Shown here in pieces: positions 10,362 through 10,949 of a stretch of DNA of 64,000 nucleotides. The notes under the pieces are model-generated. The model saw only the letters and a program-made list of their open reading frames with translations. It had not been told where the DNA came from and ran no database searches. Source of the stretch: Eledone cirrhosa (Eukaryota); NCBI GenBank assembly GCA_964016885.1, contig OZ024748.1, positions 2,232,001 through 2,296,000 of the forward strand, in the 5' to 3' direction. Both the position numbers and the translations under genes were made by a program. How positions within the stretch are numbered: the first letter of the stretch is position 1; each line of letters begins with the position of its first letter.

Positions 10362-10366
<5 letters not shown>

Positions 10367-10949
10367 TATGACCCCGACGGCAGAGCTCAAGCCGTTTCGA
10401 CGGCTATTTCTGGACTAAATTAGAATTTTAGCCTGGTGAATAAATAGCCGAACTTGTCAAGGGGGTACTTCCTTATATGGGAAGACTGTAGTTGTCAAGA
10501 GGATGGGTTAACATTTGTTGTAAACACAAATAAGTCTATCATGGCATTTGGTGGGAGGTAGGGGTGGCTGAACTTGCCTGTAGAACAGGATCTTAGAATC
10601 TGCTGTATACATATCACTTTCAACGCTTGACCGGCTCCACTCACTCCCCTATTGTTCTACAGGCAAGTTCAGCCACCCCTACCTCCCACCAAATGCCATG
10701 ATAGACTTATTTGTGTTTACAACAAATTTTAACCAATCCTCTTGACAACTACAATCTTCCCATATAAGGAAGTACCCCTTTGATAAGTTCGGCTAAAAAT
10801 TCTAATTTAGTCCACAAATAGCCGTCGAGGCGGCTTGAGTTCTGCCGTCGGGGTCATACTTTTGCCTATTTCCCACTCTACTACCCTATGTATTGAGTAC
10901 TCTGGTGCGTTATGGTCCATCTGGTTCCTTACCACAATTCCTTTGTTAT
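10362..10949. mobile_element. Longest family A element: inverted arms 10364-10587 and 10653-10863, plus family 3' tail to 10949
   Basis: About 220-bp inverted duplication flanked by (TA)n; tail ...ctactaccct...ggtccatctggttccttaccac...gtta shared with many copies. Confidence 0.85.
10364..10470 (-). ncRNA. Type I hammerhead ribozyme with U3:A8 variant core (family A)
   Basis: Minus strand reads aagta-c-cccc UUGACAA gtt-cggctattt...aaatagccg-tc GAAA cggc-ttgagctct-gcc GUC^ gggg-tca-tactt. Confidence 0.75.

What the first reader, a model, noticed from the sequence alone, without database searches (positions are those of the whole stretch)
10364..10863. Most abundant family uses a U3:A8 variant hammerhead core (UUGANAA)
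Seen: the only copy long enough to keep the 5' half reads UUGACAA (10454-10460, minus) and UUGAUAA in its mirror arm (about 10780-10786) where CUGANGA is expected. The rest of the fold is textbook: 9-bp stem II, GAAA, stem III ACGGC/GCCGU, GUC triplet, and stem I cccc/gggg plus aagta/tactt around an internal loop. Known: C3 and G8 form a tertiary Watson-Crick pair in the active HHR, and compensatory U3:A8 swaps can keep activity. Inference: the double change is compensatory, and CUGANGA-based searches would miss this family.
Basis: partly seen in the sequence, partly recalled or inferred. Interest (0 to 1): 0.85.

Follow-up and report, generated by a model that had tools for sequence, protein, structure and literature searches.

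The report
Penelope hammerhead with wandering core pair
This is a hammerhead-shaped RNA motif, predicted but not shown to cut itself, at the end of a very abundant Penelope-like jumping gene; its U3:A8 core is an already published variant, and in this genome the same two positions have also been C:G, U·G and a mismatched C·A in successive subfamilies that kept spreading.

Summary
The sequence observation holds: UUGACAA at 10454-10460 (minus) and UUGAUAA at 10780-10786. The region is a head-to-head pair of 5'-truncated 3' ends of a Neptune-like Penelope-like element (PLE) inserted in (TA)n; an intact relative with a 786-codon RT + GIY-YIG frame lies elsewhere in the genome. U3 and A8 are the norm in this subfamily (99 and 99 of the first 100 of 641 hits), N7 varies, and an old sister family has canonical CUGAYGA at the same place, so it is a hammerhead motif and not decay. 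U3:A8 cores are published, in PLEs too (2011, 2014), so novelty is low. 'Compensatory' is only partly supported: genome-wide there are 4,661 U3:A8, 1,344 C3·A8 and 47 Y3/G8 cores, and a well-supported ladder tree shows the element lineage passing U:A → C·A → U:A while twelve other core positions never change. Stem II is not textbook (2x1 internal loop at its base) and the mirror arm has GAGG for GAAA. Unexpected side result: 80 of 85 sampled 3'-half copies stop within 30 nt 5' of GAAA, near an invariant AGT. Cleavage was not tested.

The parts
10362..10587 (-). Left arm: 5'-truncated 3' end (pLTR) of the PLE, ending at the first 3' end (about 14 nt past GUC here) against (TA)n
   Evidence: 97.8% to L031 pLTR over 227 nt; full element layout in L031
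10364..10470 (-). Type I hammerhead motif with U3:A8 core
10454..10460 (-). Core strand U3 U4 G5 A6 C7 A8 A9
   Evidence: family counts
10399..10453 (-). Stem II: G10.1:C11.1, UU/U internal loop, 9-bp helix (10450-10442 with 10409-10401), distal hairpin
   Evidence: G:C to A:U change in subfamily B
10414..10416 (-). AGT in loop II, 18 nt 5' of G12, constant in all 13 subfamilies; marks the 5' boundary of most short insertions
10395..10398 (-). G12 A13 A14 A15.1
   Evidence: unchanged across subfamilies
10377..10395 (-). Stem III (5 bp) with 9-nt loop holding the palindrome GAGCUC (10388-10383)
10376..10378 (-). GUC triplet; predicted cleavage between 10376 and 10375
   Evidence: position inferred from the hammerhead consensus; not tested
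10592..10952 (+). Right arm: second 5'-truncated copy in inverted orientation, with decayed hammerhead (UUGAUAA 10780-10786, GAGG 10827-10830, 15-nt deletion)
   Evidence: 92% to L031 over 377 nt
10864..10952 (+). 'Tail' extension (about 85 nt of the element's 5' UTR) present on one arm only, ending against (TA)n
   Evidence: same two 3' ends
10010..10362 (.). (TA)n microsatellite target

Best explanation
The region is a head-to-head pair of truncated 3' ends of a Neptune-like Penelope-like retrotransposon inserted in a (TA)n repeat, and its left arm carries the element's type I hammerhead motif with a U3:A8 core, which likely cuts slowly after GUC with help from a partner RNA or the element's protein and is likely not needed for every transposition. 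Shown: element anatomy, copy numbers, an old sister family with C3:G8, conservation of the rest of the core, and the order of 3:8 states along the lineage. Inferred: reverse transcription starts at two sites 3' of the motif (giving a short end and a tailed end, as described for the Anolis PLE); two RNAs pair through the GAGCUC palindrome; the 3:8 pair tolerates any pyrimidine-purine combination because cleavage is weak, assisted or dispensable, while the fold itself stays under selection. This window copy has no ORF and is a dead insertion.
For: [quoted passage not shown] Register fixed by old family D: column counts in 30 blast-picked copies C24/T6, T29, G27, A28, T17/C10, G26/A4, A28. Over 13 subfamilies, U4 G5 A6 A9 G10.1 C11.1 G12 A13 A14 A15.1 U16.1 C17 show 0 changes and GAGCUC 0, against 1.3-1.75 changes per column in flanks and loop II; unforced checks agree (TGA 99 and A8A9 100 of the first 100 of 5,902 hits; no variant at 8% or more at these places in run X1). 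Double-sided changes in stems I and II, 8 of 21 pairs, 86% of cells paired against 31-52% when slid. Stem III dimer -26.9 against -13.0 kcal/mol for two monomers. Literature: PLE hammerheads are weak, dimeric or protein-assisted, and catalytic mutants do not block insertion in vitro.
Against: No cleavage data and no RNA run. No Rfam hammerhead hit, even for D copies. No Pfam or PDB hit for the ORF, so the clade rests on motifs, not on a tree with named PLEs. The hammerhead-compatible fold is a minor state for subfamily A (median 0.02). The subfamily table was built with a regular expression that forces part of the core, and related sequences beat shuffles without structure; D rows are misregistered in stem II of alignment A1. 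Conservation of the 3' half could also reflect promoter or protein-binding sequence.
Confidence: 0.62

Rival explanations
1. Strictly compensatory, fully active ribozyme: U3:A8 replaces C3:G8 and cleavage is required; the C3·A8 stage was survived by trans-cleavage in dimers with U3:A8 RNAs or by a protonated C·A wobble.
For: U3:A8 is the majority (4,661 against 1,344); U3 returns in the youngest subfamilies, and the youngest (Cb) has the best predicted fold, 0.475 against 0.04 or less elsewhere; all five changes at 3 and 8 are transitions while N7 also takes transversions; U3:A8 is reported active in vitro; end-branch lengths of subfamily A overlap those of the C·A subfamilies.
Against: C3·A8 spans 7 successive rows of the backbone, about 0.05 changes per site, all nodes starred; position 3 changes at least as often as neutral flanks, so the return to U needs no selection; single 3 or 8 mutants abolish the Anolis PLE ribozyme (C3G, G8C); genomic 3' ends lie about 21 and about 100 nt beyond GUC, so templates were uncut or re-ligated.
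Confidence: 0.2
2. Catalytically dead relic: since the split from family D the motif no longer cuts and is kept only as a protein-binding, promoter or template-boundary structure.
For: Free movement of position 3, a broken 10.2:11.2 pair in most subfamilies (15 of 21 rows unpaired), small subfamily-like sets with G3 or G2.1, low fold probability and a competing GCCGU-CGAA-ACGGC hairpin in C subfamilies; Naiad PLEs spread without hammerheads.
Against: U4, G5, A6 and A9, which have catalytic-core roles (recalled) and lie outside the short copied 3' half, never change; A8 in place of G8 is a known active state when paired.
Confidence: 0.15
3. Not a hammerhead: chance likeness in a structured 3' end, or decay of this copy.
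For: No Rfam hit.
Against: Canonical CUGAYGA in homologous family D, family-wide U3/A8, position in a PLE pLTR as published.
Confidence: 0.03

Closest known systems
Hammerheads of metazoan Penelope-like elements, including the U3-A8 variant of Schistosoma mansoni Cercyon elements (Cervera and De la Pena 2014, PMC4209133)
   Same: Type I topology in both pLTRs, sense to the ORF; U3-A8 core missed by the canonical descriptor (about 1,300 hits there); long helix II, G10.1-C11.1, palindromic loop III; mostly truncated single or inverted copies.
   Different: Here helix III is a full 5-bp stem with a 9-nt loop rather than minimal; no extra nucleotide between 9 and 10.1 but a bulge after 10.2; the parts read do not mention C3·A8 or U3·G8 subfamilies or this genome's group (supplement file 1 could not be searched).
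Natural U3-A8 hammerheads (Perreault et al. 2011, PMC3088659)
   Same: Same core covariation, described as natural and as active in vitro.
   Different: Not tied to a lineage history; mismatched C3·A8 is not listed in the section read.
Poseidon element PAc of Anolis (Frangieh et al. 2024, PMC11167929)
   Same: Two internal RT start sites that define a tail; AT-rich target; hammerhead upstream of the start sites; cleavage protein-assisted and not needed for insertion in vitro.
   Different: PAc has C3:G8, a minimal motif overlapping the ORF start and a 30-40 nt tail; here the tail is about 80-85 nt, the ORF starts about 190 nt past GUC and has a Neptune-type linker.
Neptune/Nematis clade PLEs (as described in Craig et al. 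2021, PMC8557442)
   Same: RT followed by C-terminal GIY-YIG, cysteine linker, (TA)n targeting, inverted 5'-truncated partner copy.
   Different: Clade not placed by phylogeny with named elements.

Membership tests
Type I hammerhead ribozyme | Three helices round a core, ends in stem I | tested here: met
Type I hammerhead ribozyme | U4 G5 A6 A9, G12 A13 A14, A15.1:U16.1, H17 | tested here: met
   left arm; unchanged over subfamilies; not met in the mirror arm (GAGG)
Type I hammerhead ribozyme | Watson-Crick 3:8 pair | tested here: met
   U3:A8 in this copy and subfamily; not met in 1,344 C3·A8 copies of sister subfamilies
Type I hammerhead ribozyme | Continuous stem II closed by G10.1:C11.1 | tested here: inconclusive
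   G:C present, but a UU/U loop follows
Type I hammerhead ribozyme | Loop I / loop II tertiary contact of canonical hammerheads | not tested
   not examined; PLE hammerheads usually lack it
Type I hammerhead ribozyme | Rfam hammerhead model hit | tested here: not met
   also negative for canonical-core D copies, so of little weight
Type I hammerhead ribozyme | Self-cleavage 3' of NUH | not testable with these tools
   needs an assay; no raw RNA reads available
EN+ Penelope-like element | Single ORF, RT then GIY-YIG | tested here: met
   L221 frame, Atlas neighbours; Pfam and PDB gave no hit
EN+ Penelope-like element | pLTR direct repeats, inverted truncated partner, one-sided tail | tested here: met
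EN+ Penelope-like element | Hammerhead in the pLTR | tested here: met
   both pLTRs of L031 and L221
Neptune clade | CX2-5CxxC-type linker before GIY-YIG and microsatellite targeting | tested here: inconclusive
   CNCPDRSICPLDNRC linker and (TA)n ends seen; linker is shared with Nematis
Neptune clade | RT phylogeny with named Neptune elements | not tested
   no named PLE set at hand

The most novel reading that the evidence does not exclude
This lineage is a natural time series in which the catalytic 3:8 pair of a hammerhead moved C:G, U:A, U·G, U:A, C·A, U:A while the rest of the core stayed frozen, so a C3·A8 hammerhead is either active with protein or partner help or the fold has a second job; and transcription starts inside loop II at the invariant AGT, so the RNA's 5' end carries only the substrate half of the ribozyme, the tens of thousands of short copies are run-off cDNAs, and the active ribozyme is assembled from the two ends of the RNA or from two RNAs.
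Probability: 0.25. Interest if true: 0.7.

Novelty: new member of a known kind. Interest (0 to 1): 0.38.

Why it matters
The U3:A8 core itself adds one more genome to a published variant. What is useful is the series: a matched set of natural RNAs with C:G, U·G, U:A and C·A at the 3:8 pair in one scaffold, ordered in time and including an intact young element (L221), makes the open question of what PLE hammerheads do directly testable. The sharp 5' boundary of the short copies is a genomic footprint of the PLE copying mechanism, which is still poorly known.

Tried and rejected
Rfam at gathering and E<=10: no hammerhead model hit. Pfam on ORF pieces and on P0001, PDB on P0001: nothing. Sequencing runs: no RNA holder listed; the laid runs were contigs and cannot show ends; runs X5 and X6 of other organisms gave 3 and 4 records at depth near 3-10, not used. 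Idea that C3·A8 is the intermediate between C3:G8 and U3:A8: rejected, it is nested inside U3:A8. Idea that subfamily A regained U3 by a 1-nt insertion: rejected, A branches below the C·A clade and 4-C forms exist. U3·G8 as the true intermediate from D: not settled; it rests on two ORF-linked copies (96/94, 92/86) and depends on whether B is a side branch. A second sharp truncation site further 5': none. A D-family ORF joined in sense to a D motif: none found in 40 loci; the outgroup L341 is an inverted neighbour at 53-56% identity whose link to D is inferred. Papers stating the effect of G8A alone: none found; Lunse et al. 2017 on PLE hammerhead variants is not held and may describe such cores. 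In the 3' UTR tree a name filter dropped the 4 B rows as meant and 6 Ce rows by accident (30 of 40 rows kept). The combined unforced count of core and GAAA in one pattern could not be run; only the 5' core was counted unforced.

Full report
Observation. The region is an inverted pair, arms 94-95% complementary, next to a 350-nt (TA)n tract. The minus-strand left arm folds into three helices round an open core (z -3.1 with flanks, -1.8 without). Two details were overstated: the 9-bp helix is separated from the core by a lone G:C and a UU/U loop, and the mirror arm has GAGG for GAAA, a changed loop III and a 15-nt deletion.

What the element is. A DNA search of the 3.0-Gb host assembly found 1,681 candidates, 40 scored, nearly all 97-98% identical. 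[quoted passage not shown] Pfam and PDB give no hit; Atlas neighbours at 0.96-0.99 carry HTH_animal, GIY-YIG or RVT_1 on part of their members. With pLTRs, (TA)n targets, an inverted truncated partner and a one-sided tail, this is an EN+ Penelope-like element as described in PMC8557442 (passages seen), probably Neptune-like. The window arms match the L031 pLTR at 10587-10362 and 10592-10952. The host is an AT-rich, microsatellite-rich animal; a cephalopod is my untested guess from recalled features.

Is U3:A8 the family state? Subfamily B (115 hits) is mostly UUGAUAA with a G:C to A:U change in stem II. An old family D shows canonical CUGAYGA at the homologous place in 30 blast-picked copies, with GCCC/GGGC in stem I. 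CTGANGA upstream of the shared 3' half gives 123 hits, most of them visibly chance. So the motif is a hammerhead homologue and not one decayed copy.

The pair is not strictly kept. Matched patterns count 4,661 U3:A8, 1,344 C3·A8 and 47 with G8, of which 7 are C3:G8 and 40 U3·G8, about 16 of those forming one small subfamily (split by hand from the full listing). A pattern with all seven core positions free gives 5,902 hits; in the first 100 listed U3 75, C3 25, TGA 99, A8A9 100 (hand count). Contigs of run X1 show C at position 3 in 43,201 of 178,796 depth units, 24% (this run may be the assembly's own sample).

History. Trees from ORF DNA, which excludes the ribozyme, form a ladder: 40 rows x 426 columns (40 of 169 motif copies had enough ORF), 26 rows x 1,173 columns, and 32 rows with an outgroup. 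Order: B (U:A), a U·G subfamily, A2/A3/A (U:A), then seven successive C·A rows, then U:A again in the youngest subfamilies including the intact L221 type. In one search every node through the C·A stage is starred; AU tests reject C·A as one clade (p 3e-36) and ingroup U:A as one clade (p 9e-53), groups named after seeing the tree. A 3' UTR tree gives the same order on 30 of 40 rows. Because intact elements descend from the C·A stage, those masters were transposing. On 13 subfamilies (188 copies), twelve core columns and GAGCUC show 0 changes, position 3 three, position 8 two, N7 five, flanks and loop II 1.3-1.75 per column. The picking expression forced part of the core, so searches are the unforced support. 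Positions 3 and 8 change together only on the long, unresolved D-B branch; elsewhere each moves alone. 'Compensatory' is therefore possible for the origin but not enforced afterwards.

Structure. On 21 distinct natural rows, 86% of cells pair, 8 of 21 pairs have double-sided changes, slid controls pair 31-52% (relatedness inflates the shuffle test and D is misregistered in stem II). The 10.2:11.2 pair is open in 15 of 21. The hammerhead-compatible fold has median probability 0.02 in A, 0.001 in Ce and 0.475 in the youngest subfamily, which regained both U3 and A10.2:U11.2; a stem III dimer is predicted at -26.9 against -13.0 kcal/mol.

A sharp boundary. The 3' half has 38,904 exact 30-mer hits, six times the full cores. 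I fetched 60 stretches round early chromosome-1 hits of that list; of 85 arms in them, 80 end within 30 nt 5' of G12 and 2 keep a recognisable core; 65 have an inverted partner. Ends cluster at -11 to -25 (70 of 85, mode -17) in tailed and short arms alike, so the stop depends on position, not length; a second set of 31 flank arms has 17 short ones with mode -18 and 14 long ones. Depth in X1 drops about 17-fold or more there. An AGT at -18 is constant in all subfamilies and resembles an initiator (recalled consensus). Copies that pass the boundary end at scattered places. A transcription start inside loop II with run-off from the internal RT start sites would explain this; an RT roadblock would too. 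PLE start sites are known to lie in the pLTR, but in D. virilis upstream of the hammerhead as I read, which counts against the idea.

Literature. PMC3088659 (passages and section 8): natural U3-A8 covariation, active in vitro. PMC4209133 (parts 1-2 of 4 and a supplement search, file 1 unseen): U3-A8 in S. mansoni PLE hammerheads, about 1,300 hits; weak, dimeric activity. PMC11167929 (parts 1-2 of 4): two internal RT starts make the tail; C3G or G8C kill cleavage, the double mutant partly rescues; cleavage needs protein and is not needed for insertion in vitro. PMC6765202, PMC7761336, PMC6155905, PMC2377424: passages only. That G8A alone is strongly deleterious is recalled; searches found no paper. 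Searches showed no report of this family, of amplified C3·A8 subfamilies or of the loop II boundary, but the library lacks Lunse et al. 2017 and most subscription papers.

Verdict. A real PLE hammerhead motif of a published U3:A8 kind, in a dead twin insertion. Interest 0.38.

Noticed in passing
window 9900-9978 (+): A separate minimal hammerhead-like motif with canonical CTGATGA (9908-9914), long stem II and GAAA; stem I TATTTTAT/ATAAAATA. Different family, 400 nt from the finding.
   Followed up: no
window 9572-9625 (+): Another canonical CTGATGA motif with GAAACAGCTGTC (palindromic helix III) found by the descriptor scan.
   Followed up: no
window 13945-14000 (-) and 14430-14490 (+): Inverted pair of a further canonical-core minimal hammerhead family, again with a twin layout; the minus copy has a core change.
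   Followed up: no
window 5498-5586, 29545-29761, 35613-35814, 36884-37062, 43250-43482, 55695-55747: Short palindromic or single insertions made of only the 3' half of the motif (subfamilies A, B, C types), folding back at loop II.
   Followed up: yes
window 40229-40251 (-): Fragment of the old D-type 3' half (CGGCAAGAGCTC).
   Followed up: partly
L221:279-2636 (G000:C1:11228600-11232250): Young full-length element with an unbroken 786-codon frame between two pLTRs; near-identical siblings L225 and L260 suggest recent activity.
   Followed up: partly
L098 and L116; L055, L259: Small sets sharing G3 with A10.1, or G2.1 (6 of the first 100), changes expected to break the ribozyme, that look like minor amplified subfamilies.
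   Followed up: no
family D loci L191-L220: When N7 is C, positions 7-8 form a CpG; 3 of the 4 D copies with A8 read CA there, so CpG decay is a possible route from G8 to A8.
   Followed up: no
L157-L160 (G000:C440): Four D-type copies spaced about 26-27 kb apart on a small contig, probably a large tandem segmental repeat.
   Followed up: no
L241:1065-3701 (+): An open frame of at least 879 codons on the strand opposite a U3·G8 motif; not examined.
   Followed up: no
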